DNA of 64,000 nucleotides from Phenylobacterium sp. (GTDB taxonomy: Bacteria; Pseudomonadota; Alphaproteobacteria; Caulobacterales; Caulobacteraceae): the NCBI RefSeq assembly GCF_037968635.1, contig NZ_JBBKVV010000104.1, positions 86 through 64,085 of the forward strand. The letters run 5' to 3'. Under the pieces are notes generated by a model. That model was not told the DNA's origin. It saw only the letters and a program-made list of their open reading frames with translations, and ran no database searches. The position numbers and the translations under genes were made by a program. Shown one piece after another: positions 1,536 through 26,501 of the stretch. The first letter of the stretch is position 1; the number at the start of each line of letters is the position of its first letter.

Positions 1536-1552
1536 GAGCACGTGAAGCGAGC

Positions 1553-4102
1553 TCATCGCTGGCGCTCACGCTCCTGCTCCCGGCCACGAATGCGTTCGCG
1601 TTCTGGAGGGCGCCTCATCTCCCGCTGCAGGTTCTCAATTCCACGCACGGCCCTACCCGTCGCGCCGCGAGCGGCCACCTCGCGCAGTGTCGGATCAATG
1701 CTGAAGGCGGCCGAAATTTCTCTGGAGGATCCAGGCTGCGCTTCTTCGAGCTTCCCGCGGCTGAACTCCAACATCTCTTGAAGCTCAGGCCGTGGCTCCC
1801 GGCCCCTGGATCGCGCCCGGGCGATCTCACCAGAAGCCCTCGCGAACGCCTGCAGTGCGCTTCCAAAACCCCGATCAGAGTTCACGGTCTGACCGTCCCT
1901 GTTGCCGCCAAACCCGAGGTAGTCGGACGCCATGTCCTTTCGCCGTTCGCGACCGAGACTGCTCGCAAGCTGCTCGTCGGAGGAAAAATCCTGTCGGCTG
2001 TAGTGCAGGGAGACTGACTGGCGGTGGCGCGAGAGCGCCACGTAGGCGGCATGGCTGTCCATGTGCTCTGTGGCGAGGACATAGCTGCGATCGACCGTGA
2101 CCCCCTGCGCCTTGTGAACGGTGGCCGCGTAGCCGTGATCAAGATCGGCGTAGTCCTTGAAGTCGAACGTGACGGACCGACCATCGTGGAGGCGCACAGT
2201 CGCACCTGACTTGGTTAGCTCGATAAGGTCACCCAAGGCCCCGTTCTTCACTCCGAGTGACCGCTCATTTCGCAGGAACATCACGCGGTCCCCCTGCGCC
2301 ATCATCCGCTCGCCGTGCACGGTCTCGACAGGCAGATCTTCGCCAAGACCGCCCATTCCTCGCACCTGCGCTCGCGCGAGTTGGTTGAGAGCCGCGACAT
2401 CCTTCCGAGTGTAGGTGAGGATCATCTGAGAGCTGTTGGAATCTTCCCGTCGATCTCGTGCCCAGCCGGCGATCAGGGAGGTACGCGCGTCGGCTATCTC
2501 GTCATGCGCATGGACAGCGTCAGCCTCCGCATAGCGCGCCAGCGCGACGTCAGTACGACCGGTTGCAAGCTCGCGGGTGGCCTGCCTCTGCCAATCGTCC
2601 CGCTGCCGTCGAACCTGGGTGATCTCGACTGCGCCATGACGCTCGGCTAGCGCCCGAAATGCAGCTCCGGCCTCGATGGCCTGCAGCTGCTGCGGGTCGC
2701 CAACAAGGACGACCTTCGCGCCGGCATCGCGCGCCTCGCCGAGCACACGCTGCATCTGCCGTGAACCGACAAGACCTGCCTCGTCGACCACGAGTATGTC
2801 CTTGTCGGTCAGCAATTCGCGACCTCGCGCCCAAGCGTGCTCAAGACTCGCGAGTGTCCTTGAGTTGATACCCGACCCCGTCTCCAGGCTCTCCGCCGCG
2901 ATACCTGAGAGGGCGCCTCCAAGGACCTTGTAGCCCTCCCCTTCCCAGGCGCGCCGAGCCACGGCGAGCATGCTGCTCTTGCCCGAACCCGCGTACCCCA
3001 CGACCAAGGCGAGATCGGTGTCGCCCGTGACATGGCGTAGGGCGGAGGCCTGTTCGGCAGAGAGAGTCAGCCCTCGGCCTTCCGAGTACCGAGCAGCCTC
3101 CCTCGCAATGGCGGGCGAAACACGATGCCCATTGCGGACGTCCAAGTCCGCTGCCGACGTCTCCAATTGCGCTTCGACCTCGACCATCTCTCGCGTCGTG
3201 AAGCGTTCCTGTCCGGCTCCATCGCGCCCGAGGTAGCCCAGGTCGGGCGCGCTCCAGACAGCGGCAAGCGCCCGGTCGAACTGGGCTTTGTCATCCGTGT
3301 GCCGGTGGATGAACCGTGACACGTCCTGCCGCGTGAAGGTGGCTTGGTGATGGGTGATCGCCTCCAATGCGATGCTCGGCTCTGCGATGATCCTCTCGCC
3401 GTTTCGCCTGGCGATTTCGCGATGATCTTGCGCCCGCTCGGCGTCCTCCCCTCTCCCCTCTCGACGGGATCCCGCGGCGCCGATTTTATGCTGCGGCTCA
3501 AGGTCAATTCCCTGCGCCTCCAACGACCTGTGATCGACACGGGCATTGATATCGAGCTCAGCCAGTCGCCGGTTGAGGTGGCCTTCCCAGGCCTCCCGCC
3601 AGTGTTCCAAAAGCTCTGTCTGGTTCCAGGCGCGAACCTTTGCGCCGAAACCGTCAGGCGTTGCCTCCCGCATGGCTAGCATCACATGCGCATGCGGTCT
3701 GGCTTCGCCATCCGCACCAATGTCCCAGTGCACGTTGAGGTCGGCCACCATGCCGCGATGGACAATTTCGTTTTGTACGAAGTCGCGCGCCAGGCCGACG
3801 GCGTCGGCCTGGCCAATCTCCCGCGGCAGGGCGAACTCTACCTCGCGGGCAAGCTGGGCATCCTTGCGCTTCTCCGCGACCTCGACCTCGTTCCACAGCG
3901 TCGCGCGGTCTGCCCATCGCTCCGGCGCGCCGTCGGGCGTCAGGATCTCCGAATGAACGACGCCGGCCTTGTTGGTGAAGTCGTGCGCGCGATCGAGCCG
4001 GTCATCATGCAGACGAGAGGCGGCGCGGTAGGCCGCCGCAGCCACGGCGCTCGAGCCTTTGGCCCGGCTGATGACTTTGGCGGAGAAGTGGTAGATCGCC
4101 AT
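1553..4102 (-). CDS. traA: Ti-type conjugative relaxase/helicase TraA (MobA/MobL MOBQ relaxase + RecD-like helicase)
   Basis: N-term 'MAIYHFSAKVISR...AAAAYRA', HUH 'PHAHVML'; helicase Walker A 'GYAGSGKS', 'VVDEAG', 'HGYAATVHKAQG'. Confidence 0.95.
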   Translation of the reverse strand: MAIYHFSAKVISRAKGSSAVAAAAYRAASRLHDDRLDRAHDFTNKAGVVHSEILTPDGAPERWADRATLWNEVEVAEKRKDAQLAREVEFALPREIGQADAVGLARDFVQNEIVHRGMVADLNVHWDIGADGEARPHAHVMLAMREATPDGFGAKVRAWNQTELLEHWREAWEGHLNRRLAELDINARVDHRSLEAQGIDLEPQHKIGAAGSRREGRGEDAERAQDHREIARRNGERIIAEPSIALEAITHHQATFTRQDVSRFIHRHTDDKAQFDRALAAVWSAPDLGYLGRDGAGQERFTTREMVEVEAQLETSAADLDVRNGHRVSPAIAREAARYSEGRGLTLSAEQASALRHVTGDTDLALVVGYAGSGKSSMLAVARRAWEGEGYKVLGGALSGIAAESLETGSGINSRTLASLEHAWARGRELLTDKDILVVDEAGLVGSRQMQRVLGEARDAGAKVVLVGDPQQLQAIEAGAAFRALAERHGAVEITQVRRQRDDWQRQATRELATGRTDVALARYAEADAVHAHDEIADARTSLIAGWARDRREDSNSSQMILTYTRKDVAALNQLARAQVRGMGGLGEDLPVETVHGERMMAQGDRVMFLRNERSLGVKNGALGDLIELTKSGATVRLHDGRSVTFDFKDYADLDHGYAATVHKAQGVTVDRSYVLATEHMDSHAAYVALSRHRQSVSLHYSRQDFSSDEQLASSLGRERRKDMASDYLGFGGNRDGQTVNSDRGFGSALQAFARASGEIARARSRGREPRPELQEMLEFSRGKLEEAQPGSSREISAAFSIDPTLREVAARGATGRAVRGIENLQREMRRPPERERIRGREQERERQR

Positions 4103-4135
4103 CCCGGCGCTCCCCGCAGGTTGATCTTAAAGCGA

Positions 4136-4184
4136 CGTCGGCACGACGTATAAGCGCGCCCTCCCGACTTTCGGTCGGTCGGGA
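4136..4184 (+). other. oriT with MOBQ-type nic site
   Basis: ACGTATAAGCGCG^CCCT at 4146-4162 matches the RSF1010/pSC101/pTi-type nic core TAAxTGCG^CCCT. Flanking inverted repeats are CGTCG/CGACG (4136-4148) and TCCCGAC/GTCGGGA (4162-4184). It lies between divergent traA and traC/D. Confidence 0.8.
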
Positions 4185-4292
4185 TTTTCAGGGAATACGC
4201 AGTCCTACCCGGTCAGAGCCCGTAGCCTTACGCGTCGCGCGCTAGGCGAGAGCGCGCGAAACTCTTCCGCATGCACAGCTGCGGAGTTGGCC

Positions 4293-4595
4293 ATGCGAAA
4301 ACCTCGAGACATAGATGCCGAGCTGCAGGCTCTGGCCGAACGGGCCAAGGGCCTGAAGAGCCGCAAGGTGAGCCAGCTGGGGGAACTGGCGATCGCCACC
4401 GGAGCCGACGCTCTGTCGGTTGAAGTGTTGGCCGGCGCCCTACTCGCGGCGGCCAAGACCCGTGATGAGACCGCGATCACCACGTGGCGCCGACAGGGAG
4501 AAGCCTTCTTTCGGCGGACGGCCACACGTCGCGTTGGGGCGGGCGCTGGCCAGGACACTGACAGCGCTACGCCGCACCCTGGCTCAGAAACATAG
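4293..4595 (+). CDS. Relaxosome accessory protein, TraC/TraD-like
   Basis: 'MRKPRDIDAELQALAERAKGLKSRKVSQLGELAIATGADAL', divergent from traA in the pTi-like traCDG arrangement. Confidence 0.75.
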   Translation: MRKPRDIDAELQALAERAKGLKSRKVSQLGELAIATGADALSVEVLAGALLAAAKTRDETAITTWRRQGEAFFRRTATRRVGAGAGQDTDSATPHPGSET

Positions 4596-4635
4596 AGCTG
4601 AAGCCTTGCAGGCCAGAACTGAGACAAGGACCTGG

Positions 4636-4878
4636 ATGGCGGCGCGGCGCGAACGAACACGCCATCTGATCGAACTCGGCGGCTTGGTGCAGAAGGCGGG
4701 ACTGGTCGAACTCACGGACGACGACCGCGCCGTATTGCTTGGCGCATTCCTAGCTGTCGCCCAGATGTTGTCAGGGGAGCAGAGACAGGCGGCCTTGGCC
4801 AACTGGCGCCACTCTGGCCGGCGGGCGTTTCAGGCTCACGCCATGGCGGTTGCCGAGCGAGATCGGACCGAGCCATGA
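4636..4878 (+). CDS. traD: Conjugal transfer protein TraD-like
   Basis: 'RRERTRHLIELGGLVQKAGL' resembles the pTi TraD motif. ATGA overlap with traG. Start uncertain. Confidence 0.75.
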   Translation: MAARRERTRHLIELGGLVQKAGLVELTDDDRAVLLGAFLAVAQMLSGEQRQAALANWRHSGRRAFQAHAMAVAERDRTEP

Positions 4879-6446
4879 AGTACTTGCGACTAGCCGTTTG
4901 GCTGATCGTCGGCTTCTTCGGTGGAAGCCTGCTCATGAACATCGCGCTCTATGCGGCGCGGTTCGCTGGACACCCCATTTGGCCAGCCTGGCTGCTTCCG
5001 CTCCAGGTGGCCGGAGAGGTTCTCGGCGCATTCTCTGGCTATCTTTGGTGGCGGTTCAAGAACCGACCGCTTCGGTCGGACGTCCATGGTTCGGCGCACT
5101 TTCAAGGCGCCAAGATCACCAGGGCCACCCTCGGGGTGAGTCGCGGCCTCATTGTCGGTCGCGACAGACGCGGGGAACTTTTGCGTTACGACGGACCCGC
5201 GCACCTGCTGACAATTGCACCGACCCGATCTGGCAAGGGCGTCGGCGCGATCATCCCGAACTTGCTCACGACGGACTACTCGATCCTTTGCATCGATCCG
5301 AAAGGCGAGAACGCCCGCATCACGGCTCGCGCACGTGCGTTGCGCGGCCCAGTGCATGTCCTCGATCCGTTTGGAATCTCGGGTGAGCCCTGCGCGGCGT
5401 TCAATCCACTGAGCCGGTTGGACCCGGCCGGTGTCGACCTAGCGGAAGACGCGGCAATGATCGCCGATGCTTTGGTCTACGACCCGCCCGGCCAGGTGAG
5501 TGAGGCGCACTGGAACGAGGAGGCCCGCGCGCTCATCGCCGGGCTCATTCTCCACATTGTGACGAACCGATCTCCCGCCCACCGGTCGCTTGCAGCGGTT
5601 CGCGCCCTCCTCACTACCACGCCTGAGAAGTTCGATCAGGCGCTCTTTGACATGCAAGGTAGCTACGCTGCTCGCGGTCTCGTGGCCCGCGCCGCCAACC
5701 GGCATCTCAGCAAGAGTGAACGTGAGGGCGCGGGCGTTCTGTCGGCCGCTCAGAGGCACACCCACTTCCTCGACAGCCCGCGCATGGTACGGGTGCTGCA
5801 GAAGTCCGACTTTGCTTTTAGCGATCTCAAGCGAGGGCCAACCAGCGTCTTCCTGGTGCTGCCACCGGAGCGCCTGGCGACGCATGCTCGCTGGCTGCGG
5901 CTGTTGGTAGTCCAGGCGATCGGTGAGTTGGCGCAGACGCAGGCGAAGGATGCGCCACCACCGCATCCCGTTCTGATGATGCTTGACGAGTTTGCGGCGT
6001 TGGGACGCGTCGAACCTGTCGAGCGTGCCTTCGCACTGATGGCCGGCTACGGCCTGCAACTCTGGGCGATCCTGCAGGACCTCCATCAATTGAAGGGCCT
6101 GTACGGAGAACAGGCTGGAAGTTTCCTATCCAACGCTGGCCTGATCCAGGTCTTCAATGTCGCTGACATCGACACCGCGACCTGGGTGTCCCGCACCCTT
6201 GGCGCAGCGACGGAAGTGTTCAACACGATGTCGTGGGCGGAACGGCCGGAGTCCCGACCTTGGTGGCGGTCTTACACGCCCACAACGACGCTCAACCTCA
6301 GTCGCCGAGACCTCATGACGCCCGACGAGGTGATGCGTCTGGGTCAGGAAGAGTTGCTACTCCTGCGCCCTGGCATGTCGCCCGTGGTGGCGCAGAAGGT
6401 TCGCTACTATCGGGACCAGCAGTTTGCGGGCCTCTTCGATGCATAG
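4875..6446 (+). CDS. traG: Type IV coupling protein TraG/VirD4
   Basis: N-terminal TM segments, Walker A 'APTRSGKG', 'IDPKGE', Walker B 'MMLDEFAALG', 'ILQDLHQL', 'LMTPDEV'. Confidence 0.93.
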   Translation: MKYLRLAVWLIVGFFGGSLLMNIALYAARFAGHPIWPAWLLPLQVAGEVLGAFSGYLWWRFKNRPLRSDVHGSAHFQGAKITRATLGVSRGLIVGRDRRGELLRYDGPAHLLTIAPTRSGKGVGAIIPNLLTTDYSILCIDPKGENARITARARALRGPVHVLDPFGISGEPCAAFNPLSRLDPAGVDLAEDAAMIADALVYDPPGQVSEAHWNEEARALIAGLILHIVTNRSPAHRSLAAVRALLTTTPEKFDQALFDMQGSYAARGLVARAANRHLSKSEREGAGVLSAAQRHTHFLDSPRMVRVLQKSDFAFSDLKRGPTSVFLVLPPERLATHARWLRLLVVQAIGELAQTQAKDAPPPHPVLMMLDEFAALGRVEPVERAFALMAGYGLQLWAILQDLHQLKGLYGEQAGSFLSNAGLIQVFNVADIDTATWVSRTLGAATEVFNTMSWAERPESRPWWRSYTPTTTLNLSRRDLMTPDEVMRLGQEELLLLRPGMSPVVAQKVRYYRDQQFAGLFDA

Positions 6447-6522
6447 TCGGACTGACGACCGCAACTCGCGATTGGACCGGGAGCAGCTTGTCACCTCCCC
6501 CGGCTCAGGCGACATACATGAG

Positions 6523-7443
6523 ATGAAGACCAGTCTGGATCACCTACCGGCGGGCAAGCGACGCGAGCTCGAACTCGTCGTGGAGATCCTGGCGGCATCA
6601 TTTGCAAAGGCAGTTGCGGATCGAAAGGTCGACCGTCTGAAGAACGGCAAGATCCTGAAAATCATCCTATTTGGATCGTATGCTCGCGGGGACTGGGTCG
6701 AGGATCCGGTCGGACGTTACTTCTCTGACTTTGACTTACTCGTGGTGGTGGACGACGACGATCTAGCCGACACGGTTGAGTTCTGGGATATCGCTGAGGC
6801 TCGCCTGCTTAAGGAGCTGTCGGCTGGCAAAGTCCTTCGGACACCGGTCAACTTCATCGTCCACAGCCTGCAGGATGTGAACCACCAGCTTGAGCGTGGT
6901 CGCTACTTCTTCGTCGATATCGTCCGCGACGGCGTCCTGCTGCTTGACGTCCCAGGTCACCCTCTCACCACTCCGAAGGATCTGGCCCCAGCAACGGCGC
7001 TCGACGAAGCGAAGGGGTATTTCGACCAATGGCTGGAGAGCGCCGCAGACTTCGAGGATCAGGCTACCTACGCGGTTTCGAAAGGTAGGCTCAAAAACGC
7101 AGCCTTCCAAATGCATCAGGCGGCGGAGCATTTCTACAACTGCGTTCTGCTGGTTCTAACCCTCTACACACCAAAGTCCCACAATCTAGTGCGCCTTCGA
7201 AATCTGGCCGAGCCACTTGACCCTCGCCTGATCGCCGTCTGGGCCTTCGACACAAAGTTTGAAAAGCGCTGCTTCGAGTTGTTGCGCGCGGCGTACATCA
7301 AGGCGCGCTACTCGCGGCACTTCAAAGTCACGGCGGACGAGTTGGAGTGGCTCGGTCAGCGGGTGGCAGCGTTAAAGACAGCGGTCACAGCCGTTTGTGA
7401 GGAGCGGTTAGAAGCGTTGGAAACGCAGATCGCTGCCGAATAG
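6523..7443 (+). CDS. Fused minimal nucleotidyltransferase (MNT) + HEPN domain protein
   Basis: 'LFGSYARGDW...SDFDLLVVV' NTase motif followed by HEPN-like 'AAFQMHQAAE...PKSHNL...AYIKARY'. Start taken at MKTSLDHLP. Confidence 0.88.
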   Translation: MKTSLDHLPAGKRRELELVVEILAASFAKAVADRKVDRLKNGKILKIILFGSYARGDWVEDPVGRYFSDFDLLVVVDDDDLADTVEFWDIAEARLLKELSAGKVLRTPVNFIVHSLQDVNHQLERGRYFFVDIVRDGVLLLDVPGHPLTTPKDLAPATALDEAKGYFDQWLESAADFEDQATYAVSKGRLKNAAFQMHQAAEHFYNCVLLVLTLYTPKSHNLVRLRNLAEPLDPRLIAVWAFDTKFEKRCFELLRAAYIKARYSRHFKVTADELEWLGQRVAALKTAVTAVCEERLEALETQIAAE

Positions 7444-7648
7444 GTCGCTTGTGCGCCAGCAGCCGACATTGGCGCGCCTCCGGAAACCGGACGTTCAGAT
7501 TGCGGGCACGCGACGTTTTTGTAACAGGCTGAGTGAGGGGGGCCCGCTGCGGCCTAGGCCATCACCCGCCGTTCGCGCCGCCTCTCTCCCGCTCGGCCTT
7601 TCCCACAATCCGGCGAAAACGAAAGTCCAGGCACCGCGGACTTTTTCC

Positions 7649-10600
7649 TCAGGGCTCGTAAGGTTCCAGATCCTTCGCCTTTGGCTTGGAAGTGCCAGGA
7701 TAGGACTGCCGCAGCCGCCGAGCGAGATCGCCCAGCCCGTCCTTACGTGTCAGCGCCGTCTCGACCAGTAGGGCTGCGGCGCGTCGTGGGGTCCCGCCCG
7801 CCTTCAGACCCTTGCGAAGATTGGGTTCGAGCTTGGCGAGGTCGAGCTCTGCGAGCGTAGCGTCGAATGTCTCGGGCGCGATGGTCCGAACAAGCCTCAC
7901 TACCGATACGAAATGAGGCTCATCCTTTGCGGGCCCCTCAGTCAGGGCCTTGACGAGGTTCTTCTTCGCGCAGGCATAGGCCGGCCCGAAAAGTTCGCGC
8001 CGGTCCTGGGCGACATAGCCAAGCACACCGAACGTGAAGCTCCAGTGGTGGCCAAACTCAATTGCTCTGCCGGCCTCCAGATGCTGTAACGCGACCTTGG
8101 GAGCAATCACCGCGAGCCGCGCGGGCATGACATTGATCTCGTCGGCCCGCTCCCCGATCACAGCCCTGATGGCGGCCAATGGCCGCTTGCCGCGACAGCA
8201 GATCCCCAGCAAGTGCTCGGCCTCGCGGAAGAGATGCGACCAATCCTCGCCGATGGTGTTTCCCAGTTGCTTCCAGTCCAACGCCAGGACGGTCGCCTCA
8301 TAGATTTTCGGCGCAGCCTTGCTCAGGAAGAGCAGCAGGTAACCGGCTTGCTGGAAATTACGGGTCTCGGTAGCCGACAGCTGCCCCGCCAGAACCGCCG
8401 GCTCGAAGCCCTCGCACAGCCGGGCGGCCAACGCCTTATGACGGGCGCGAGGCGCATACTTTCCGGTATAGGCGCCGAGGATGTCGAGAATCCTCAAGGT
8501 CTGGTGGGCGATGTCGTCGAGCTGGTGAAAGGTGTCGACTGGGCTAGCCTTCAGGAGCGTCACAGCCATAGGCGTCACGGCCTCGACCATGTCGAGCCCC
8601 AGATCCTCGTCAAACCATCCGGTCGACTTGGTGAGATTGGAATAGGCGCCGATCCAGACGTCCTGCGGCCACTCACGCCCCAATCGCTTCAGCGCTTCTC
8701 GGTCCACGGCGGCGCTGAACCTGGCTTTCCAGGCCTCTGGCCATGCGTTGCCCGTGAAGCTGATGTATTCGCCAAGGTGGTATGCACTCTGAGGTGCGGC
8801 GGCCGACACGCTCGCGGCCGCCTTCTCCGGATCGGCGGCCTCGAAAAGGGCTTCCACGATGGCAGAGCTGTCACGCATGGCATTGATCAGCCGGCGAACC
8901 CCGTAGCCCATTGGCTCCAACGGCGCCTCGATCCAGCGCGGTAGAAGTTCAAGGCCGTCGGCCAAGAGGATCTCGAACGGTGTCTGGTTTAGGTAGTGAA
9001 GTTCGACCAGGATCAGGCTGGCGAAGGTTCGCTCTTCAGGATCCTTAGCGGCCCAGCATCGCGCCACGAGCCGCTTCTCGACCTCCGGATCCATCTCGTA
9101 GAGCCATTGATTGTCCCAACGGACCTGACGCATCTCGTCCAGGAACAGCCGAAGGCCGGCGAGCGGATGGACCGGATCGCCGAGCGTCGCATCGAGGAGG
9201 CGACTAAAGGCTTGCCGCTCCTCGCCCTCCTGCAAAGCCATGATCCGCCGGATGGCCACCGACGCGAACCGCTGGTGAGGTGTGCGCAGGTCCGAAGGGC
9301 CCAGGAGCAGCCGTTCATCAACCAGCCAGTCAATCGCGTTGTCGATGGTTCCCGTCTGCAGCCCTGCGACCGCGAGCAAGACCTCGAACTCGGCCCGTTC
9401 GGGCCTAGCGTCGCGAGAGGCCAGTTGGCACATGGCCGCGGCGGCCAGCACGAGGTCCGCGCCCTTGGCTCGTGCGGCCCGCGCCGCATCCGAGGCTCTC
9501 GCCTCCCCGCCGCCGAGAATGAAGCAAAACTGCCAGGGGAGCTCGGCATGGGTCTCGGCAAAGTCTAGGCGGCGGTCTAGGGACTCTTCGAACGGCTTGT
9601 CCCCTATCCGGCTATCGGCGCTCCGGACCGCCGCTAGGGTCGCGGCCCGGTCGCGCCGCAGCTCGGCGGCGATCACCTGGACCGCGCGCTTGGGGTCCAT
9701 GACGATCGCGCCGCGGCCGGCCCCGCCGTGGCCCAAGGCGTTGTGGGTCGACAGCAGCAGTCGGTCCTGACGAGTCTCGCTCTCGGCCAAAGCCAAGAGA
9801 TGCGGGGCAGTTAGGTGAGCGTCGTCGATGAGGCAGAGTACCTTGCCGGCGGCGGGCGGCCAGTCGATGACCGGAGCCCGAGGATCGGTCATCTGGAACA
9901 CCTTCCAACCGTCGTCGGCGAAGGCCTTGGCTGCTTGCCAGGCGCAGACCGACTTGCCCGCGCCTGGCTGGCCTTCCAAGCGAGAAGAGTACGCGCGGCG
10001 AAGATCGGCGACCGCTGCGTTAGCCTCGGGCAAGGTTGGACAGGCCAAGACGTCTGACGGGCCGAGCCCTCGCCCCATCAGCGCCGGGCCAAGATCTCGC
10101 GACTGCGCGAAGGTCACTCGTCGCCAGTAGGCATGGGTTGGCGCGGGGGACGGCGCCTGGGCCAGGTGCTTGATGTCCTCCCGCAGGCCCCTGATCTCGT
10201 CGGCAGAGACCGCCTTGAGTGCGGGCGCGAGGGCCGAGAGATCAAGGCCAAGCTCGCCATAGAACTGGTCGAGCACCTGGGGGTGGGCGACGAGAAGGCC
10301 GCAGATATCCTCCCAGCCGAGAATACGGACCGGAAAGGCGCCCCCGGCGACGCGCGCTGCCGAAATCTCGCGTAAGGCTTCCTGCAGCTTGGCGTCGGCA
10401 GGCGCGGTGGTGGCGAAGGTCCAGTGGCTGAGCTCCGGGGCGAAAGTTTCGGCCTTGGCCAGTTCGCGTCTGACCTCGGCGATCGTGGCCCTGGTGCCGT
10501 AGGTTCCGTCCTTGCCCTTGCACTGGACGCCGAAGAAAGTCTCGTCACGCCCGGCGGGAGCCCCCCAGACGTCGACACCGGCCTGGGCCTGGCCGCCGCG

Positions 10601-10714
10601 ACCGTTCTTCTGCGCCAGCTTGTCGGACCAGACTGCCCGGAACAGCGCCAAGCACAAATCCTCGAAGGCCTGCCAGTGCTTTGGTGGCGGGATCTGCTTT
10701 TCCCGGGCGTCCAT
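7649..10714 (-). CDS. PD-(D/E)xK (Mrr/Cap4-like) nuclease fused to STAND-type P-loop NTPase and long helical C-terminus; putative NLR/Avs-like defence protein
   Basis: N-term 'WQAFEDLC...GRGGQAQAGVDVWG...GVQCK'; Walker A 'GQPGAGKS'; Walker B 'LCLIDDAH'; 1021 aa. Confidence 0.75.
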   Translation of the reverse strand: MDAREKQIPPPKHWQAFEDLCLALFRAVWSDKLAQKNGRGGQAQAGVDVWGAPAGRDETFFGVQCKGKDGTYGTRATIAEVRRELAKAETFAPELSHWTFATTAPADAKLQEALREISAARVAGGAFPVRILGWEDICGLLVAHPQVLDQFYGELGLDLSALAPALKAVSADEIRGLREDIKHLAQAPSPAPTHAYWRRVTFAQSRDLGPALMGRGLGPSDVLACPTLPEANAAVADLRRAYSSRLEGQPGAGKSVCAWQAAKAFADDGWKVFQMTDPRAPVIDWPPAAGKVLCLIDDAHLTAPHLLALAESETRQDRLLLSTHNALGHGGAGRGAIVMDPKRAVQVIAAELRRDRAATLAAVRSADSRIGDKPFEESLDRRLDFAETHAELPWQFCFILGGGEARASDAARAARAKGADLVLAAAAMCQLASRDARPERAEFEVLLAVAGLQTGTIDNAIDWLVDERLLLGPSDLRTPHQRFASVAIRRIMALQEGEERQAFSRLLDATLGDPVHPLAGLRLFLDEMRQVRWDNQWLYEMDPEVEKRLVARCWAAKDPEERTFASLILVELHYLNQTPFEILLADGLELLPRWIEAPLEPMGYGVRRLINAMRDSSAIVEALFEAADPEKAAASVSAAAPQSAYHLGEYISFTGNAWPEAWKARFSAAVDREALKRLGREWPQDVWIGAYSNLTKSTGWFDEDLGLDMVEAVTPMAVTLLKASPVDTFHQLDDIAHQTLRILDILGAYTGKYAPRARHKALAARLCEGFEPAVLAGQLSATETRNFQQAGYLLLFLSKAAPKIYEATVLALDWKQLGNTIGEDWSHLFREAEHLLGICCRGKRPLAAIRAVIGERADEINVMPARLAVIAPKVALQHLEAGRAIEFGHHWSFTFGVLGYVAQDRRELFGPAYACAKKNLVKALTEGPAKDEPHFVSVVRLVRTIAPETFDATLAELDLAKLEPNLRKGLKAGGTPRRAAALLVETALTRKDGLGDLARRLRQSYPGTSKPKAKDLEPYEP

Positions 10715-10871
10715 GGTCTAGGCGTCTCCTCCCGCGGCGACTCAGCCTGCGGTGCCCGGCATCTTGGCAAGCTCAGAGGTTTTCGTCCCAAACGGCCGGC
10801 GCGGCGCTTCAACGGCTAGACCCTTTCAGACGCTGAAGCAGTGAACCCAACCGGACCCAAGCCAACGGGAA

Positions 10872-11138
10872 CTAGAACTGGATGCGGCCGTGGCCGGCGA
10901 CGCCATTGAGCTGTGTCATGAGGAAGCTCAAATCCCCGTCCAAGCCACGAACAAGGACGCCTTCGAATTGAGGTTCATAATGCGCCGCTGGCCCAATGGT
11001 GTGGCCAGGAAATTCGCTCTCTCGGCGGAAGGTCGCGAAGTCCTCGGCGTTGAGGGCAAAGCGATGCGGTGTGTCATGCTCACACCCTCCACATCTATGG
11101 CGATCCGTTGGCGTGCAGCAATGTCGGCTCTGGCTCAA
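10872..11138 (-). CDS. Small hypothetical protein, possibly frameshifted at its 5' end
   Basis: The C-terminal ~65 aa look protein-like. The best RBS+ATG (GGAGG...ATG at 11077) is out of frame with them. Confidence 0.3.
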   Translation of the reverse strand: MSQSRHCCTPTDRHRCGGCEHDTPHRFALNAEDFATFRRESEFPGHTIGPAAHYEPQFEGVLVRGLDGDLSFLMTQLNGVAGHGRIQF

Positions 11139-11290
11139 TCAACGGCGTCTAGATCAGGTTTCGAGACGCGCCTTGCACCGGTTTTCGCTCAGCTTTAGCG
11201 TTGGGCGGGATGCTACGCGGCAGCGTGGGCCGCTCGCGGGCAACGACTAGATCGCGACCGCCCGCCGACCTCGTAATCAAAAGGATCGCC

Positions 11291-13033
11291 GTGCGGATCG
11301 TCAGGGTCGAAATCCAGAACTACCGCGGCATTGGGACGCTCGACTGGCAGCCCTCGCCTGGCATGAACTGCCTGATTGGGCCTGGCGATTCCACCAAGAC
11401 CACAATCCTCGATGCGATCGAGCTGGCCCTCAATCCCCGGTCAAACTATCTGGGCGATGACACCGACTTCCACGATCTCAACTTCGATCTCCCCGTCAGG
11501 GTGACGGTGACTCTGGTCGGCATTCCGGCCGAGTTCTGCATCGATACGCGCTACGGGCTGCATCTGCGCGGCTGGGACGAGACGGCCGCGAAGCTCGTTG
11601 ACGAACCGGGCGATGGGCTGATGGAGGCGTTGTCGGTTCGGGTCGAGATTGATCCATCGACCCTCGAAGGGCGCTGGGCGATCTATAATGATCGCTTGGC
11701 CGAGGACGGCGATCCGCCGTCCTTGCGCTACAAGGATGCGCAGCAGCTGGCGACGACGCGGCTGGGTCCGTACGCCGAGCGGCATCTGGGCTGGGGCCGA
11801 CAATCGATCCTCAATCGCATCGGCGAAGGCGGGCGGATGAGCGAGCAGCTGGCCAGCGCCAGCCGCGCCGCCCGCGCGGCGTTCAAGACCAGCAATAAGG
11901 ACGTGTTCGCCATCCCCACAGCTCGTGCCGAGAAGTTGGGCAAGCACTTCTCGGTCCGGGTTCGGCAGGCCTTTACCGCCGAACTCGATGTCCAAGGCTC
12001 GGCGATCACCTCCGGCGGCGTCGTTCTCCATGACGGCGACCTGCCGCTCCGCACCTTGGGCACCGGGTCTTCGCGGTTGATCGTCTCGGCCCTGCAGCAC
12101 AATGCCGGCGGGTCTCATATCGCCCTGGTCGATGAGATCGAACATGGCCTTGAGCCACACCGCATCGCCCGGCTGCTGAAATATCTCCGCAACCCGCCGG
12201 CGCTGGAGGATGAGGCCGCCAAGGCTGGCACCGCCGCGCCGCAGACCTTCCTGACCACCCATTCCAACGTCGTGATCCGCGAACTCGACGCAGGCGACAT
12301 CCACGCCGTTCGCTCCCATGAGGGCCGAACCCAGGTGCGGTCAGTTGAACAGGCCGCCGCGACCCCGGACATCGCCCAGCGCCAGCTGCGCGCGTCGCCC
12401 GAAGCCTTCCTGGCGAGGCGCATCCTGGTCGGCGAGGGCCGGACGGAATGTGGCCTGTTGCGCGGTCTGGACGCTTGCTGGATCGCGGACGGCAGAGACT
12501 CCTTCGCGCTCCGCGGCGTGGTGGCGATCGACGGCGGCGGCGTCCCTAACGCCGTGACCCTGACCCAGTCCCTGCTCGATTTGGGATACGAGTGCTTGGC
12601 CCTGCTCGACTCCGACAAACCGCCGTCTCAAGAATCCGTGGCCAAGGTCGAAGCGGTTGGCGGCGTGGTCTTGGAATGGGGAGACGACTGCTCGACCGAA
12701 GAGCGCCTCTTCCGTGATGTCCCGTGGGCGACGGTGGACGCTTTGGTGGGGCTGGCAATCCAGTGCAACACCGAAGACAGCGTGCTGGCGACCCTTCGGG
12801 CGACCTGCAAGTCCATGAAGCTCGCCGAACCGGTGGATCTGAGCCTTCCGGTCAGCCTCGATACACCTCAAGTCCGCGCCGCGCTTGGTCTCACCGCGCG
12901 CGAGAAGTCCTGGTTCAAGACCATTCCGCGCGGCGAACGGCTCGCGGCGCTGGTGTATCCGTGCCTGAAGCACATCCCGGCCACACCCTTGGCCAAGCAT
13001 CTGTCTCATCTGCGCGCGTGGGTCGATGGCTGA
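11291..13033 (+). CDS. gajA: OLD-family ATP-dependent endonuclease (ABC ATPase + TOPRIM), GajA-like
   Basis: 'MRIVRVEIQNYRGI', Walker A-like 'GPGDSTKT', signature 'LGTGSSR', Walker B 'LVDEIEHGLEP', H-loop 'LTTHS', TOPRIM 'VGEGRTE...LLDSD'. GTG start at 11291. Confidence 0.85.
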   Translation: MRIVRVEIQNYRGIGTLDWQPSPGMNCLIGPGDSTKTTILDAIELALNPRSNYLGDDTDFHDLNFDLPVRVTVTLVGIPAEFCIDTRYGLHLRGWDETAAKLVDEPGDGLMEALSVRVEIDPSTLEGRWAIYNDRLAEDGDPPSLRYKDAQQLATTRLGPYAERHLGWGRQSILNRIGEGGRMSEQLASASRAARAAFKTSNKDVFAIPTARAEKLGKHFSVRVRQAFTAELDVQGSAITSGGVVLHDGDLPLRTLGTGSSRLIVSALQHNAGGSHIALVDEIEHGLEPHRIARLLKYLRNPPALEDEAAKAGTAAPQTFLTTHSNVVIRELDAGDIHAVRSHEGRTQVRSVEQAAATPDIAQRQLRASPEAFLARRILVGEGRTECGLLRGLDACWIADGRDSFALRGVVAIDGGGVPNAVTLTQSLLDLGYECLALLDSDKPPSQESVAKVEAVGGVVLEWGDDCSTEERLFRDVPWATVDALVGLAIQCNTEDSVLATLRATCKSMKLAEPVDLSLPVSLDTPQVRAALGLTAREKSWFKTIPRGERLAALVYPCLKHIPATPLAKHLSHLRAWVDG

Positions 13034-14471
13034 TCCGCACGTTGACGACCTGGCCGCCAGGATCTGCAGGGTACAGGCCGGGTCGATCGTGGCGGCGGCC
13101 GGCTGCGGCAAGACGGAGCAGATCGTCAACGCCACCGTCCTGAGCCAGGGACGGCGGCTCATCCTCACCCACACCCACGCCGGGGTCGACGCCCTGCGCA
13201 AGCGTATGCGGGAGAAAGGGGTGTCGACCAGCCAGTACGCCATCGACACCATCGCGGGCTGGTGCCTGCGCTACGCGGCCGCCTATCCGCGCCGGTCCGG
13301 GCTGAAAGTGGCCACGCCCAAGGGTGATCAAGACTGGACAGCGGTCTATGCTGGGGCGATCGCGTTGCTGGAGAGCGGTGCTGTCACCCAGGTTTTGAAG
13401 GTCTCCTACTGCGGTGTGTTCGTCGACGAGTACCAGGACTGCGGCGGCGCTCAGCATCAGGTCTTCGCGGCTCTGTCGAAAGTGCTGCCCGTCTGCGTGT
13501 TCGGTGATCCCCTGCAGGCGATCTTTGATTTTGGGCAGACGCCCGTCGATTGGCGCGGCGAGGTGTTTGCGCGGTTTCCCCAGCTTTCGACCCTGACCAA
13601 ACCCTGGCGATGGCATCGGCATGGAAACGCCGAGATGGCCAATTGGCTAGAAACGGTGCGCCCCGTCCTCGAGGCTGGACGCCCGCTGGATCTTGCGGCC
13701 CGACCCGCTTGCGTGACCTGGGAATGGTTGCCTGACCAGGACGGGCCACGCCAATCAAAAATTGTCTCCACCTGCCTCAAGGCGATGAAAGGCGAGGGAA
13801 ACCTGGTGGTGATCGCCGATCCGGCCAACCTCAATGGACGGGCGTTGATCGCCAAGAAGCTCGGCCGACAGGGCTTTTCCAACATCGAGCCCATCGAGTG
13901 CAAGACGGTGTATGCCGCGGCCAAGAGGCTGGCGGCGACCTCGGGGCCAAGGCGCCTGGTCGCGCTCCTGGCGTTCCTCGAGCAATGCATGTCCGGCGTC
14001 GCGAAGGGTGAGTTTCTCAAGGCCGTCGCGTCGCGCAAGGCTGGCGGCAAGCTCGGTAGCGCCAAGTTCGGGGACCTTGTCGAGCTTGGCGTGGCCTTCG
14101 ACCATGGTGCGGATGATGAGGTCTGTCTGGCCTTGGTCGATGGGTTCGCCGCCCAGGCGATGACGGTCGTCTTCCGCCGTGAAATGCTATATTCAATGCG
14201 TTCGGCGCTGAGGATGAAGGTGGCGGGCGATGCCGCAGATCTGTCGGAAGCCTTGTGGCACGTGCAGACGAAGATCCGACACGCGGGTCGGCAGATCCCC
14301 TACTATAGCGTCGGCAGCACGCTCCTGGTGAAGGGGTTGGAGTTTGCCAACGTCGTGGTCATCCACTCGACGAACATGAACAACAAGGACTGGTACGTCG
14401 CCTTGACGCGGGCGACCCACCGGCTGACGATCCTGTCGCCGAAAGCGGTGATCGCTCCAGGGTTCGCGTGA
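13026..14471 (+). CDS. gajB: UvrD/Rep-like SF1 helicase, GajB-like
   Basis: 'AAAGCGKT', 'FVDEYQD', 'FGDPLQAIF', 'VKGLEF', 'YVALTRA'. Overlaps the gajA stop by 8 bp. Confidence 0.85.
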   Translation: MADPHVDDLAARICRVQAGSIVAAAGCGKTEQIVNATVLSQGRRLILTHTHAGVDALRKRMREKGVSTSQYAIDTIAGWCLRYAAAYPRRSGLKVATPKGDQDWTAVYAGAIALLESGAVTQVLKVSYCGVFVDEYQDCGGAQHQVFAALSKVLPVCVFGDPLQAIFDFGQTPVDWRGEVFARFPQLSTLTKPWRWHRHGNAEMANWLETVRPVLEAGRPLDLAARPACVTWEWLPDQDGPRQSKIVSTCLKAMKGEGNLVVIADPANLNGRALIAKKLGRQGFSNIEPIECKTVYAAAKRLAATSGPRRLVALLAFLEQCMSGVAKGEFLKAVASRKAGGKLGSAKFGDLVELGVAFDHGADDEVCLALVDGFAAQAMTVVFRREMLYSMRSALRMKVAGDAADLSEALWHVQTKIRHAGRQIPYYSVGSTLLVKGLEFANVVVIHSTNMNNKDWYVALTRATHRLTILSPKAVIAPGFA

Positions 14472-14505
14472 GCACTTGGCCCATGCGCCTCGAGACCGTG
14501 AGCGC

Positions 14506-15048
14506 CTAGATCTTGGACGACGCCTTCCAGGCGGCGACGAAACTGGGCGTCAGCTCGGCGAGACGGTCTAGGAGAACCTCCAAGGTCATCGGTGGATTCT
14601 TTAGCCGGGCGACCTGCGCGGTCAGAGCGACCGCCAGGGCTTGAGGCGTCTTTTCCAGCAACAGGCAGAGAAAGTCGTCCGGGCTAATGGCGGTCACGCC
14701 GGGCGGCAGCTTGGCGAAGTCCTTAAGGTTGCTGGTGACGATCAGGCTGGCCCCGCCCTGGACCGCGCACGCCGCGACGTGGCGGTCCTTGACGTGGTTG
14801 GGCATGGTGAGGATCAGGGGCTCGTGGCCCTCGACGAAGGCGTCCTCGAACTGAAGATCAAGGGTCGCGCGAAGACGTTTGGCCTTGGGGGCGGTCAGGC
14901 GGCCGTCCGCCACCAGGTTGCGGGTAGCTTCCTCGACGATGAACACGCTCCAGCGCGGCTGAAAACAGCCGGCCGCCGCCGCCGACAGAAGGGTGTCGCG
15001 CAGGGGCAACGGATAAAGGACATCGGCGTCGAGGACAGCGACGATCAC
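14506..15048 (-). CDS. PIN domain protein (PIN_3-like VapC ribonuclease toxin)
   Basis: 'VAVLDADVLY', 'IVEEATRNL', 'KDRHVAACA', 'IVTSNLKDF', 'SPDDFL'. Confidence 0.9.
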   Translation of the reverse strand: MIVAVLDADVLYPLPLRDTLLSAAAAGCFQPRWSVFIVEEATRNLVADGRLTAPKAKRLRATLDLQFEDAFVEGHEPLILTMPNHVKDRHVAACAVQGGASLIVTSNLKDFAKLPPGVTAISPDDFLCLLLEKTPQALAVALTAQVARLKNPPMTLEVLLDRLAELTPSFVAAWKASSKI

Positions 15049-15785: not shown

Positions 15786-16101
15786 GGGAGGGCTCCTTTG
15801 AGGCGGACATAAATTCCGCTGATTGGTAGGCTTATAGAATGAAACATCAATAGAGTCAGCGACGTAGATATGCACTCAGCCCATTTAACCTGGCGCATTG
15901 ATGTCAGAAGTGATTGCGAGCTTGTCACATCAAGGGCAACTCGAATGGTGGCCTGGCTTGTTTGTGCCTATCGGGTCGCGTAAGCTACTGATCTAGCACG
16001 GGTAATAGTCTATCCCGATGTGCTGGCGGTGATCGGGTGCTCGGCTGTGCTGACCATGTGCTCCCGGTGCTGACTGGGGGATCGGCCAAGGGGGAGCCTT
16101 G

Positions 16102-16119
16102 GTTGCGTTTGTAGCGTTT
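16102..16119. promoter_or_regulatory. Tandem 9-bp repeat, candidate operator upstream of the excisionase-like HTH gene
   Basis: GTTGCGTTT/GTAGCGTTT directly upstream of ATG 16135, in the divergent intergenic region. Confidence 0.35.
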
Positions 16120-16134
16120 ATACCGCACCTGACG

Positions 16135-26276: not shown

Positions 26277-26501
26277 CGGGTTTCTCGCTTGTTGAGAAAA
26301 CCCTATCAAATCAATCGTGGTATCTCAAGTGCATAAGTGCCTCATCGTGTCCAGAACATAACAAGAACTTCTGACGGCGCCTGGACGCCGCAGCGCTCAA
26401 CAAATGAACAGGCGGCCGCCATCGTGGTCCCGAACGCCCACCGTCATTGCCACCGGTCCCCACACGCCTAAGCTCCAAGGGCCAACCCTGGGGACTTCCA
26501 C

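What the first reader, a model, noticed from the sequence alone, without database searches (positions are those of the whole stretch)
7649..10714. Stand-alone nuclease-STAND-sensor protein: candidate undescribed NLR/Avs-like anti-phage system
Seen: an N-terminal ~150-aa PD-(D/E)xK-type domain (E..GVD..QCK), a central Walker A GQPGAGKS / Walker B LIDDAH, and ~600 aa of predicted helical C-terminus with no motif I recognise. Known: effector-STAND-sensor is the architecture of Avs and bacterial NACHT/NLR-like defences, which oligomerise on sensing a phage protein and cut DNA. Inference: the unusual C-terminus may sense a ligand not covered by described Avs types. It sits between MNT-HEPN and a Gabija-like pair.
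Basis: partly seen in the sequence, partly recalled or inferred. Interest (0 to 1): 0.82.

Follow-up and report, generated by a model that had tools for sequence, protein, structure and literature searches.

The report
Uncharacterised Avs-like nuclease-STAND defence protein
This gene encodes a large three-part protein (DNA-cutting head, ATP-driven switch, helical sensor tail) of the same design as known bacterial anti-phage "Avs" receptors; it belongs to a widespread but untested family, so it is a good new example of a known kind and not a new kind of system.

Summary
Window 7649-10714 (minus strand) is one intact 1021-aa gene. It has an N-terminal Mrr-like PD-(D/E)xK domain (E18, D48, Q64-x-K66), a P-loop NTPase (GQPGAGKS 248-255, LIDDAH 295-300) and a ~540-aa ARM/HEAT-like helical C-terminus. 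It lies between a fused MNT-HEPN gene and a full Gabija pair, beside a relaxase and a coupling protein.

It belongs to a sharply defined family of ~1030-aa proteins, 40-60% identical, scattered across at least eight phyla and present in about 1% of genomes of its own family. A homologue on Klebsiella, E. coli and Enterobacter plasmids is still annotated "hypothetical protein". The body carries other heads in relatives (SIR2, HNH, trypsin-like protease, EAD7), and the same nuclease head sits on NACHT and TPR proteins. Neighbours are often defence genes. The best structural matches are SAMD9, Avs4 and Avs5.

No PADLOC, NCBIfam or PDB sequence match covers it. The most likely function is an Avs-like abortive-infection nuclease; the trigger is unknown. 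A 2026 census of about 200 defence-associated STAND clades probably includes this family; I could not check its tables. Verdict: new member of a known kind, moderate interest.

The parts
7649..10714 (-). Whole CDS, 1021 aa plus stop: Mrr-like nuclease, STAND NTPase, helical sensor
   Evidence: full-length homologues; AF2 model with pLDDT 86.7 and pTM 0.70
10726..10733 (-). Shine-Dalgarno-like GGGAGGAG, 11 nt upstream of the ATG at 10714
   Evidence: read from the sequence
10250..10714 (-). N-terminal effector domain (residues 1-155): Mrr-like PD-(D/E)xK nuclease fold
   Evidence: Mrr_cat hit in 11/14 and Mrr_cat_2 in 6/14 N-domains, all below threshold. Domain model pLDDT 87.6. Foldseek: Cdn1, Avs4 N-domain (TMq 0.58, rmsd 3.9), AF1548, EcoO109I, NucS, Can2.
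10517..10525 (-). Q64-C65-K66, the (E/Q)xK part of the nuclease motif. Partners are D48 (10571-10573) and E18 (10661-10663).
   Evidence: invariant or nearly invariant in 120 homologues and across other architectures
10127..10249 (-). Poorly conserved, low-confidence linker (residues 156-196); the point at which effectors are exchanged
   Evidence: 24% mean identity; pLDDT below 50 at 159-170 and 182-193; matches of relatives with other heads start at about residue 180-197
9275..10126 (-). NOD module (residues 197-480): conserved RDLGPALMGR lead-in, P-loop NTPase, helical domain with invariant PWQFCFxLGGG, winged-helix-like end with invariant R477-x-PHQ
   Evidence: sub-threshold Pfam nSTAND_NTPase5 and nSTAND3 hits; Foldseek SAMD9, Avs4, EfAvs5
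9950..9973 (-). Walker A, GQPGAGKS (residues 248-255)
   Evidence: G248, G251, G253 and K254 kept in 120/120
9821..9838 (-). Walker B, LCLIDD (residues 293-298), followed by invariant H300
   Evidence: D297 120/120, D298 115/120
7652..9274 (-). C-terminal all-helical ARM/HEAT-like solenoid (residues 481-1021), the presumed sensor
   Evidence: DSSP with pLDDT mostly above 90; Foldseek hits to armadillo, importin and SF3B1 repeats; most divergent part of the protein, 33-40% identity
6424..7443 (+). Neighbour: fused MNT-HEPN protein (339 aa), convergent with the gene
11201..14471 (+). Neighbour: Gabija GajA (11201-13033) and GajB (13026-14471), divergent from the gene
1553..6446 (.). Mobile-element backbone: MobA/MobL relaxase-helicase (1553-4102, minus strand) and type IV coupling protein (4875-6446, plus strand)
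   Evidence: the relaxase resembles TraA of Acetobacteraceae plasmids

Best explanation
The gene encodes a single-protein, Avs-like (antiviral STAND / bacterial NLR-like) immune receptor, carried as cargo in a small defence island on a mobilisable element.

Proposed mechanism, by analogy with Avs3, Avs4, Avs7 and Avs8:
1. In the resting state the ARM/HEAT-like C-terminal solenoid and the NOD module hold the N-terminal Mrr-like nuclease inactive.
2. A phage-derived protein, or another infection signal, binds the solenoid and releases this inhibition.
3. The NTPase binds ATP and the protein oligomerises.
4. Oligomerisation brings the PD-(D/E)xK heads together. They cut DNA indiscriminately and abort the infection.

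Shown here: the three-domain anatomy, intact catalytic and nucleotide-binding residues, family-wide conservation, modular effector exchange, sporadic mobile distribution and defence-island context.

Inferred: the trigger, oligomerisation, the DNase activity and its substrate, and phage protection itself.
For: (1) Anatomy. The protein has an Mrr-like fold with E18/D48/Q64-x-K66. It has Walker A and B motifs and a helical/winged-helix continuation. The best full-length Foldseek matches are human SAMD9 (4.5e-7), Avs4 (1.3e-5) and EfAvs5 (1.6e-5), followed by ARM/HEAT solenoids.

(2) Effector swapping on the same body (residues ~197-1020).
- Trypsin-like protease in L053; its head matches PADLOC LmuA (2.5e-22) and the Avs1b N-terminus (6.9e-22).
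- HNH in L063, L065 and L073; the head matches CBASS, Shedu and PDC-M68A effectors (down to 8e-29).
- EAD7 in L060 (1.5e-9).
- SIR2_2 in P0182, and SIR2-like in L077 and L081.
- Further unknown heads.
- Among the 268 retrieved proteins: 143 have Mrr plus body, 47 have SIR2-like plus body, and 30 have the same nuclease head without the body. The full-length ones among those 30 that were scanned carry NACHT-NCAB2, TPR or NACHT-pentapeptide bodies; many of the rest are short.

(3) Context.
- In the window: Gabija, MNT-HEPN and PIN beside a relaxase and coupling protein.
- In homologue loci: inside a type I R-M operon with DarTG, Lit, Vsr and AbiE; next to AbiJ; near a Gabija-like pair; next to an OLD-TOPRIM gene; next to a NACHT-NCAB2 protein with RES-Xre; in a TIGR02391-REase-gene-phosphoesterase-HAD-Hachiman island on Klebsiella, E. 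coli and Enterobacter plasmids and in E. coli chromosomes.
- Immediate neighbours hit type I S subunits, mad5, PDC-M54A and CapH.

(4) Distribution.
- One copy in the own genome.
- Two of 201 genomes of the same family carry a full-length copy.
- 78 loci among 185,579 species genomes, spread across many phyla.
- 27 of 5426 complete E. coli genomes, at 99.9% identity to the Klebsiella plasmid copy.

(5) Divergence gradient. The sensor is the most divergent domain (33-40% identity) against 50-58% for the NTPase and nuclease, as expected for a ligand-facing domain.

(6) The gene stands alone. No neighbouring gene is conserved across loci.
Against: No experiment, and no homologue with a tested function was found.

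This protein's own Pfam STAND hits are below the gathering thresholds (24.2 against 34 bits; 18.5 against 27.2).

All PD-(D/E)xK evidence is sub-threshold by sequence and weak by Foldseek E-value (7.5e-3 to 2.7e-2).

Global TM-scores to SAMD9, Avs4 and Avs5 are low (0.14-0.22).

The C-terminus is unusually well conserved for an Avs sensor: it aligns over its full length from Acidobacteriota to Enterobacteriaceae. This could mean a non-phage or host-derived ligand.

The neighbourhood evidence is a set of examples without a background rate.
Confidence: 0.7

Rival explanations
1. Same mechanism, but the family is not new. It is one of the STAND families already catalogued, and possibly already tested and named (Avs11-24 or another of the ~30 sensor clusters cloned), in Lee et al., Nature 2026.
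For: That study built 589 STAND clades from 359,879 sequences, including nSTAND clades and seeds found with Mrr effectors. It preferred Enterobacteriaceae representatives, with Kp, Ec and Eh prefixes. This family has Klebsiella, E. coli and Enterobacter members.
Against: Accessions of family members appear in no paper text held. RefSeq still calls the E. coli and Klebsiella protein 'hypothetical protein' in September 2026. NCBIfam (June 2026) and PADLOC 2.0 have no model for it. The named EhAvs10 is a NACHT protein (Erebus/Hypnos/bNACHT64), whereas this protein has no NACHT hit. The supplementary tables could not be read, so this is unresolved.
Confidence: 0.25
2. An inter-element conflict or plasmid-maintenance module and not an anti-phage sensor. 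The solenoid would detect a protein of incoming plasmids or conjugative elements, or the loss of its own element, and the nuclease would kill the cell or cut the intruder.
For: The gene sits directly beside a relaxase and coupling protein in the window, on Enterobacter plasmid p1_045001, and near a relaxase in Peristeroidobacter. Fifteen plasmid records carry a full-length copy. It is absent from 2.9 million viral contigs and 50,697 phage records.
Against: Many copies are chromosomal, in classic anti-phage islands with type I R-M, DarTG, AbiE and Hachiman. Every characterised effector-STAND-sensor protein of this design senses phage proteins (PMC13581612). Carriage on plasmids is usual for anti-phage genes.
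Confidence: 0.1
3. An NTP-dependent type IV (modification-dependent) restriction enzyme. The Mrr-like head would cut modified foreign DNA directly, and the NTPase and helical region would serve DNA binding or translocation and not ligand sensing.
For: The head is Mrr-like with the D...QxK motif. UniRef and NCBI name some members 'restriction endonuclease'.
Against: The same body carries a protease, SIR2, HNH or an EAD7 adaptor in place of the nuclease. That makes sense for a signal-transducing switch and not for a DNA translocase. The NTPase is nSTAND-like with SAMD9, Avs4 and Avs5 as best folds, not McrB/AAA+ or SF2. No DNA-binding domain was detected.
Confidence: 0.05

Closest known systems
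Avs4 (antiviral STAND type 4; EcAvs4, PDB 8DGF)
   Same: One polypeptide with an N-terminal Mrr-like PD-(D/E)xK nuclease, a STAND NTPase and a large helical C-terminal sensor. The N-domain model superposes on the Avs4 nuclease (TMq 0.58, rmsd 3.9). The full-length model ranks Avs4 second.
   Different: No detectable sequence homology: no PADLOC Avs hit and no hit of the family profile to any PDB chain beyond the P-loop. This protein is about 1020 aa against about 1540. Its NTPase is of the nSTAND3/5 type, and its sensor is ARM/HEAT-like and unrelated by sequence.
Avs5 / Avs6 / Avs9 and human SAMD9/9L (the nSTAND3-type, SAMD9-like branch)
   Same: The NTPase gives its best Pfam hits to nSTAND_NTPase5 and nSTAND3, and nSTAND3 is the Avs5 NTPase. 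Human SAMD9 is the top structural match and EfAvs5 the third. A sister clade of the same body carries a SIR2 head, as Avs5 does.
   Different: The effector here is an Mrr-like nuclease, not SIR2, PNP or AlbA_2. There is no PADLOC Avs5 hit, even for the SIR2-headed relatives. Sequence identity to the solved structures is about 10%.
Avs8 (PD-lambda-4A/B)
   Same: Mrr-family nuclease plus P-loop NTPase. In vitro it cuts dsDNA when capsid protein, ATP and Mg2+ are present (PMC12236752).
   Different: Avs8 is a two-gene operon, Avs8A with Avs8B. Here no partner gene is conserved, and no PADLOC model matches.
Effector/EAD-STAND 'counter-invader conflict systems' of Kaur, Iyer, Burroughs and Aravind 2021 (nSTAND clades)
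   Same: N-terminal position occupied interchangeably by REase, HNH, SIR2, trypsin or EAD domains, followed by a STAND NTPase and helical repeats (PMC8195603). This is exactly the pattern seen in this family.
   Different: That work is a computational classification without functional tests. This particular ~1030-aa family, with its conserved C-terminal solenoid, is not described in the text I could read.

Membership tests
STAND NTPase superfamily | P-loop NTPase with Walker A GxxxxGK[ST] and Walker B hhhhDD/DE | tested here: met
   GQPGAGKS at 248-255 and LCLIDD at 293-298. K254 and D297 are kept in 120/120 homologues.
STAND NTPase superfamily | NTPase followed by a helical domain and a winged-helix domain (NOD module), ending in a conserved His-containing motif | tested here: met
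   AF2 secondary structure for residues 341-480. The best full-length fold matches are the STAND proteins SAMD9, Avs4 and EfAvs5. R477-x-PHQ is invariant. Equating H480 with the NLR nucleotide-sensing His is inference.
STAND NTPase superfamily | Pfam STAND model (nSTAND3 PF20720 / nSTAND_NTPase5 PF25199) at or above its gathering score | tested here: inconclusive
   This protein scores 24.2 bits against a cut-off of 34, and 18.5 against 27.2. Family members pass nSTAND3 (L053: 34.4 bits), and many carry precomputed PF20720 or PF25199 hits.
STAND NTPase superfamily | Tripartite effector-NTPase-repeat architecture with exchangeable N-terminal effector | tested here: met
   Mrr, SIR2, HNH, trypsin-like, EAD7 and unknown heads occur on one body. 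The same Mrr head occurs on NACHT and TPR bodies.
Avs (antiviral STAND) as a functional class | Confers phage resistance; activated by a phage protein binding the C-terminal sensor; oligomerises | not testable with these tools
Avs (antiviral STAND) as a functional class | Sporadic, mobile distribution and location among defence genes | tested here: met
   These are examples without a background rate.
Avs4 | N-terminal Mrr-like nuclease | tested here: met
   Fold match to the 8dgf_B N-domain (prob 1.00, TMq 0.58). Mrr_cat hit in 11/14 N-domains.
Avs4 | Sequence homology of the NTPase and sensor to Avs4 | tested here: not met
   No PADLOC hit of any kind. The library does hold Avs models; Avs1b matched elsewhere. 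The family profile finds no Avs4 chain in the PDB.
Avs5 | N-terminal SIR2 NADase effector | tested here: not met
   The head is Mrr-like. SIR2 occurs only in a sister clade at 26-30% identity.
Avs5 | Sequence homology to characterised Avs5 proteins | tested here: not met
   No PADLOC hit. No PDB sequence hit to EfAvs5. Similarity is at fold level only (1.6e-5, 10% identity).
Avs8 / PD-lambda-4 | Two-gene operon (Avs8A with Avs8B) | tested here: not met
   No neighbouring gene is conserved across 64 loci. The small upstream ORF at 10872-11138 is not conserved.
bacterial NACHT (bNACHT) | NACHT-type NTPase (PF05729) | tested here: not met
   This protein has no NACHT hit. NACHT appears only in other proteins that share the N-terminal head.
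Mrr-type type IV restriction endonuclease | PD-(D/E)xK core with D...QxK | tested here: met
   D48 and Q64-C-K66 are invariant or nearly so.
Mrr-type type IV restriction endonuclease | Self-contained DNA-recognising enzyme (DNA-binding domain plus nuclease), with the nuclease indispensable to the architecture | tested here: not met
   No DNA-binding domain was found. In relatives the nuclease is replaced by a protease, SIR2 or EAD7.

The most novel reading that the evidence does not exclude
The family is a functionally untested Avs type. Its ARM/HEAT-like sensor is conserved from Acidobacteriota to Enterobacteriaceae. It might recognise a trigger outside the set mapped for Avs1-24: for example a conserved non-structural phage factor, a host protein altered during infection, or a protein of conjugative elements, given its repeated position next to relaxase and coupling-protein genes.
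Probability: 0.3. Interest if true: 0.65.

Novelty: new member of a known kind. Interest (0 to 1): 0.45.

Why it matters
The protein would add one more family, with an unknown trigger, to the bacterial pattern-recognition receptors.

The family is attractive for follow-up for four reasons:
- It is a single gene.
- It is very well delimited: about 1030 aa, with full-length alignment across phyla.
- It shows textbook effector modularity.
- It has a native E. coli and Klebsiella version (WP_023300121.1, still 'hypothetical protein') that moves with a Hachiman-containing island between plasmids and chromosomes.

Phage challenge and trigger screens could therefore be run directly in laboratory E. 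coli. The protein also links the Avs4-type nuclease head with the SAMD9/Avs5-type NTPase branch.

Tried and rejected
- PADLOC 2.0, NCBIfam 20.0 and PDB sequence searches with both the protein and the family profile gave no match beyond the P-loop.
- Foldseek against viral structures found nothing significant.
- Phage records (tblastn) and IMG/VR contigs hold no family member. One Salmonella record shares only the head.
- A search for a conserved partner gene among the +/-2 neighbours of 64 loci found none. The recurrent ~400-480-aa upstream genes are not homologous to each other.
- The small upstream ORF at 10872-11138 is not conserved and has low GC3, so I rejected it as a gene.
- No second copy of the nuclease head occurs in the flanks.
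- The window has no tRNA gene. No promoter-like site was found, and the terminator-like sites are no more than chance would give.
- I tried to place the family in Lee et al. 2026 and Legrand et al. 2025. The supplements are not held, and the accessions are in no searchable text.
- Earlier notes of this scan hold nothing on this genome or sequence.
- The weak EAD2 hit at residues 959-1009 (E 0.09) is treated as noise.
Full report
**1. Is it there?**

Yes. Window 7649-10714 (minus strand) is one uninterrupted ORF of 1021 codons. It starts at an ATG with GGGAGGAG 11 nt upstream. Its codon-position GC profile is typical of a coding sequence: GC3 0.785 against 0.64-0.75 for the overlapping alternative frames.

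- GVD at 46-48
- QCK at 64-66
- GQPGAGKS at 248-255
- LIDDAH at 295-300

The window is almost the whole of a 64.2-kb contig from a 4.1-Mb draft genome, and the gene is present once. The genome belongs to the same GTDB family as a MAG labelled Caulobacteraceae.

**2. Anatomy**

An AlphaFold2 model built on 32 homologues is confident, with mean pLDDT 86.7 and pTM 0.70. It divides the protein into four parts.

- *N-terminal domain, residues 1-155.* This is an alpha/beta domain. Modelled alone (pLDDT 87.6), all of its top structural matches are PD-(D/E)xK nucleases: Cdn1, the Avs4 N-terminal nuclease (prob 1.00, TMq 0.58, rmsd 3.9 A), AF1548, EcoO109I, NucS and Can2. The E-values are weak (7.5e-3 and above). 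By sequence, 11 of 14 such domains hit Pfam Mrr_cat and 6 hit Mrr_cat_2, always below threshold. E18, D48 and Q64-x-K66 lie on the expected helix and strands, and are invariant or nearly so.
- *Linker, residues 156-196.* It is variable and low-confidence (24% identity, pLDDT below 50).
- *NOD-like module, residues 197-480.* It has a conserved lead-in (RDLGPALMGR), the P-loop NTPase, a helical domain with invariant PWQFCFxLGGG, and a winged-helix-like end with invariant R477-x-PHQ. The Pfam hits are to nSTAND_NTPase5 (3.3e-5) and nSTAND3 (1.7e-3). They are below threshold for this protein, but nSTAND3 is above threshold in relatives.
- *C-terminal solenoid, residues 481-1021.* It is all-helical, with pLDDT mostly above 90. 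After the STAND hits, its structural matches are armadillo, HEAT, importin and SF3B1 repeats.

The three best full-length fold matches are human SAMD9, Avs4 bound to phage portal, and EfAvs5 (4.5e-7 to 1.6e-5). Global TM-scores are low (0.14-0.22), as expected for multi-domain proteins in different conformations.

**3. The family**

The word-indexed search returned 472 proteins. The top 120 are full length (about 1020-1050 aa) and 39-60% identical to the query. The exhaustive search of 1.84 billion representatives gave 3499 hits at E<=1e-3 and 356 at E<=1e-30.

Seventy-eight loci were recovered from one-genome-per-species collections. They come from Alpha-, Beta- and Gammaproteobacteria, Acidobacteriota, Verrucomicrobiota, Chloroflexota, Latescibacterota, Desulfobacterota, Spirochaetia and Actinomycetota.

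Within the window's own family only 2 of 201 genomes carry a full-length copy.

A homologue with 40.5% identity and full coverage sits on large Klebsiella pneumoniae, E. coli and Enterobacter hormaechei plasmids. At 99.9% nucleotide identity it is also found in 27 of 5426 complete E. coli genomes, mostly in the chromosome.

All of these are annotated 'hypothetical protein', 'ATP-binding protein', 'restriction endonuclease' or 'nSTAND3 domain-containing NTPase'.

Catalytic and nucleotide-binding residues are conserved throughout. Mean identity to the query falls from 58% (nuclease) and 50-54% (NOD) to 33-40% in the solenoid.

**4. Modularity: the strongest argument for an immune-receptor role**

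Several relatives match the query only from about residue 180-197 onward and carry a different head.

- *Trypsin-like protease (L053).* Pfam Trypsin 2e-6. The head matches PADLOC LmuA (2.5e-22) and the Avs1b N-terminus (6.9e-22).
- *HNH nuclease (L063, L065, L073).* The head matches CBASS, SAVED-HNH, Shedu and PDC-M68A effectors (down to 8e-29).
- *EAD7 adaptor (L060).* Pfam 1.5e-9.
- *SIR2_2 (P0182; SIR2-like in L077 and L081).*
- *Unknown heads (L071, L080).*

In the retrieved set of 268 proteins, 143 combine the Mrr head with the body, 47 combine a SIR2-like head with the body, and a few have no head at all.

Conversely, the very same nuclease head (about 50% identical) occurs on NACHT-NCAB2 proteins of about 1500 aa, on a TPR protein and on a NACHT-pentapeptide protein.

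This interchange of REase, HNH, SIR2, protease and EAD heads on a STAND core is the signature of counter-invader systems described by Kaur et al. 2021 (PMC8195603) and of Avs proteins. It argues against the nuclease being a self-sufficient restriction enzyme.

**5. Context**

In the window the gene lies in a lower-GC stretch: 0.605-0.658 over 1-16 kb, against about 0.67-0.70 for most of the contig beyond 26 kb. That stretch contains:
- a MobA/MobL relaxase-helicase
- a type IV coupling protein
- a fused MNT-HEPN
- the gene itself
- Gabija GajA and GajB, divergent from it
- a PIN-domain gene
- an HTH_17 gene

Elsewhere the neighbours differ from locus to locus, and no partner gene is conserved. 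They are often defence genes:
- A Latescibacterota copy sits between hsdS and DarT-Macro-hsdR, with Lit, Vsr, a cytosine methylase and AbiE nearby.
- A Caulobacteraceae copy sits beside AbiJ.
- The Peristeroidobacter copy lies near a Gabija-like pair, a relaxase and a methylase.
- A Burkholderia copy sits beside an OLD-TOPRIM gene.
- The Pseudoxanthobacter copy is divergent from an HNH-NACHT-NCAB2 protein, with RES-Xre nearby. Clear relatives of that NLR-like neighbour recur in three other loci (L039, L040, L061), and more distant partial matches in two more (L024, L026).
- The enterobacterial copy travels in a fixed island, TIGR02391 - restriction endonuclease - gene - metallophosphoesterase - HAD - Hachiman HamAB, flanked by IS elements.

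A PADLOC scan of 122 immediate neighbours found type I specificity subunits (3 members), mad5 (3), PDC-M54A (4) and CapH among 229 matched models. I have no background rate, so this is supportive and not statistical.

The family is absent from phage records and from IMG/VR contigs.

**6. Mechanism**

The most likely mechanism is that of the characterised nuclease-STAND receptors, as I recall it for Avs3 and Avs4 from Gao et al. 2022, and as read here for Avs7 (PMC13581612) and Avs8 (PMC12236752):
1. An auto-inhibited monomer binds a trigger through its helical sensor.
2. The NTPase binds ATP and the protein oligomerises.
3. The clustered PD-(D/E)xK heads degrade DNA.

Every residue needed for that scheme is intact here. 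Everything beyond the anatomy is inference. I put this at 0.70.

Rivals:
- An inter-element or plasmid-maintenance role, suggested by the position next to relaxase genes (0.10).
- An NTP-dependent type IV restriction enzyme, disfavoured by the effector swapping (0.05).
- Separately from mechanism, identity with an already catalogued or named Avs family (0.25).

**7. Comparison with what is known**

The protein works like an Avs. It shares the Avs4 type of head and the Avs5/SAMD9 type of NTPase branch. It is not a member of Avs4, Avs5, Avs8 or bNACHT by any sequence test available:
- No PADLOC hit at E<=1. The library does hold Avs models.
- No NCBIfam model.
- No PDB sequence relative.
- No NACHT hit.

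The SIR2-headed sister clade also has no PADLOC Avs5 hit.

Lee et al. 2026 report 589 STAND clades, 198 defence-associated clades, 684 sensor clusters and named families up to Avs24, chosen mainly from Enterobacteriaceae. This family very probably lies somewhere in that census and might have been among the roughly 30 clusters cloned. I could not read their tables, and none of the accessions occurs in searchable text.

**8. Verdict**

The novelty is that of an uncharacterised member of a well-known class, not of a new class. Interest is 0.45. The protein is a clean, single-gene candidate that can be tested experimentally, with a native E. coli homologue and an unknown trigger. A specialist who has seen the 2026 STAND census would not be surprised by it.

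Noticed in passing
window 6424-7443 (+): MNT (nucleotidyltransferase) and HEPN are fused in one 339-aa protein. Its start overlaps the end of the coupling-protein gene by 23 nt. It gives only weak PADLOC hits, to PDC-S09.
   Followed up: partly
window 14506-15875 (-): A PIN_3-domain protein (180 aa) overlaps by 4 nt with an upstream 276-aa ORF that has no Pfam or PADLOC hit. This may be a two-gene toxin-antitoxin or defence module directly after Gabija.
   Followed up: no
window 1-17000: A lower-GC stretch (0.605-0.658, against about 0.67-0.70 for most of the contig beyond 26 kb) holds an ECF sigma factor, relaxase, coupling protein, four defence modules and an HTH_17 (AlpA/excisionase-like) gene at 16099-16647. 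No type IV secretion genes, integrase or tRNA were seen in the window. It looks like a mobilisable island or a fragment of one. Its boundaries were not determined.
   Followed up: partly
L093, L094, L095 (Enterobacter and Klebsiella plasmids, E. coli chromosome): There is a fixed island: TIGR02391 protein - 477-aa 'restriction endonuclease' - family homologue - metallophosphoesterase - HAD hydrolase - Hachiman HamAB. It is 99.9% identical between Klebsiella plasmids and 27 E. coli genomes. In one E. coli chromosome examined it lies next to a truncated ydeT, and IS elements flank it. The genes between the homologue and Hachiman are uncharacterised and could be further defence genes.
   Followed up: partly
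L092 10001-13060 and flanks: In a Latescibacterota MAG the homologue and a DarT-Macro (DarTG) pair are inserted between hsdS and hsdR of a type I R-M operon. Lit (Peptidase_U49), Vsr, a C5 methylase and AbiEi/Eii lie nearby. This is a very dense defence island.
   Followed up: no
L091 5282-9658 (-); also L040, L039, L061; more distantly L024 and L026: A ~1450-aa protein with an HNH-like N-terminus (read by eye) and a Pfam NCAB2 hit (NACHT-type C-terminal domain), i.e. another NLR-like protein, recurs next to the family gene. Three further loci hold clear relatives (46-63% identity) and two hold partial matches (~29% identity). It does not share the Mrr-like head.
   Followed up: partly
P0256, P0265, P0268, P0269: The ~155-aa Mrr-like head (QIxPPKxW..FEDLC..GVD..GVQCKGK..ATTAP) is a distinct, highly conserved cassette, about 50% identical across unrelated bodies. 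It is reused by NACHT-NCAB2, TPR and NACHT-pentapeptide proteins. No Pfam model captures it above threshold.
   Followed up: partly
P0001 residues 959-1009 (window ~7685-7840): There is a weak Pfam hit to Effector-associated domain 2 (EAD2) at the extreme C-terminus (E 0.09, 13.5 bits against a cut-off of 23.8). It is probably noise. If real, it would imply recruitment of a second partner.
   Followed up: no
window 25326-26309 (-): An IS1595-family transposase lies further along the contig, among metabolic genes: M13 peptidase, an old yellow enzyme-type oxidoreductase, a fatty-acid desaturase and an acyl-CoA dehydrogenase.
   Followed up: no
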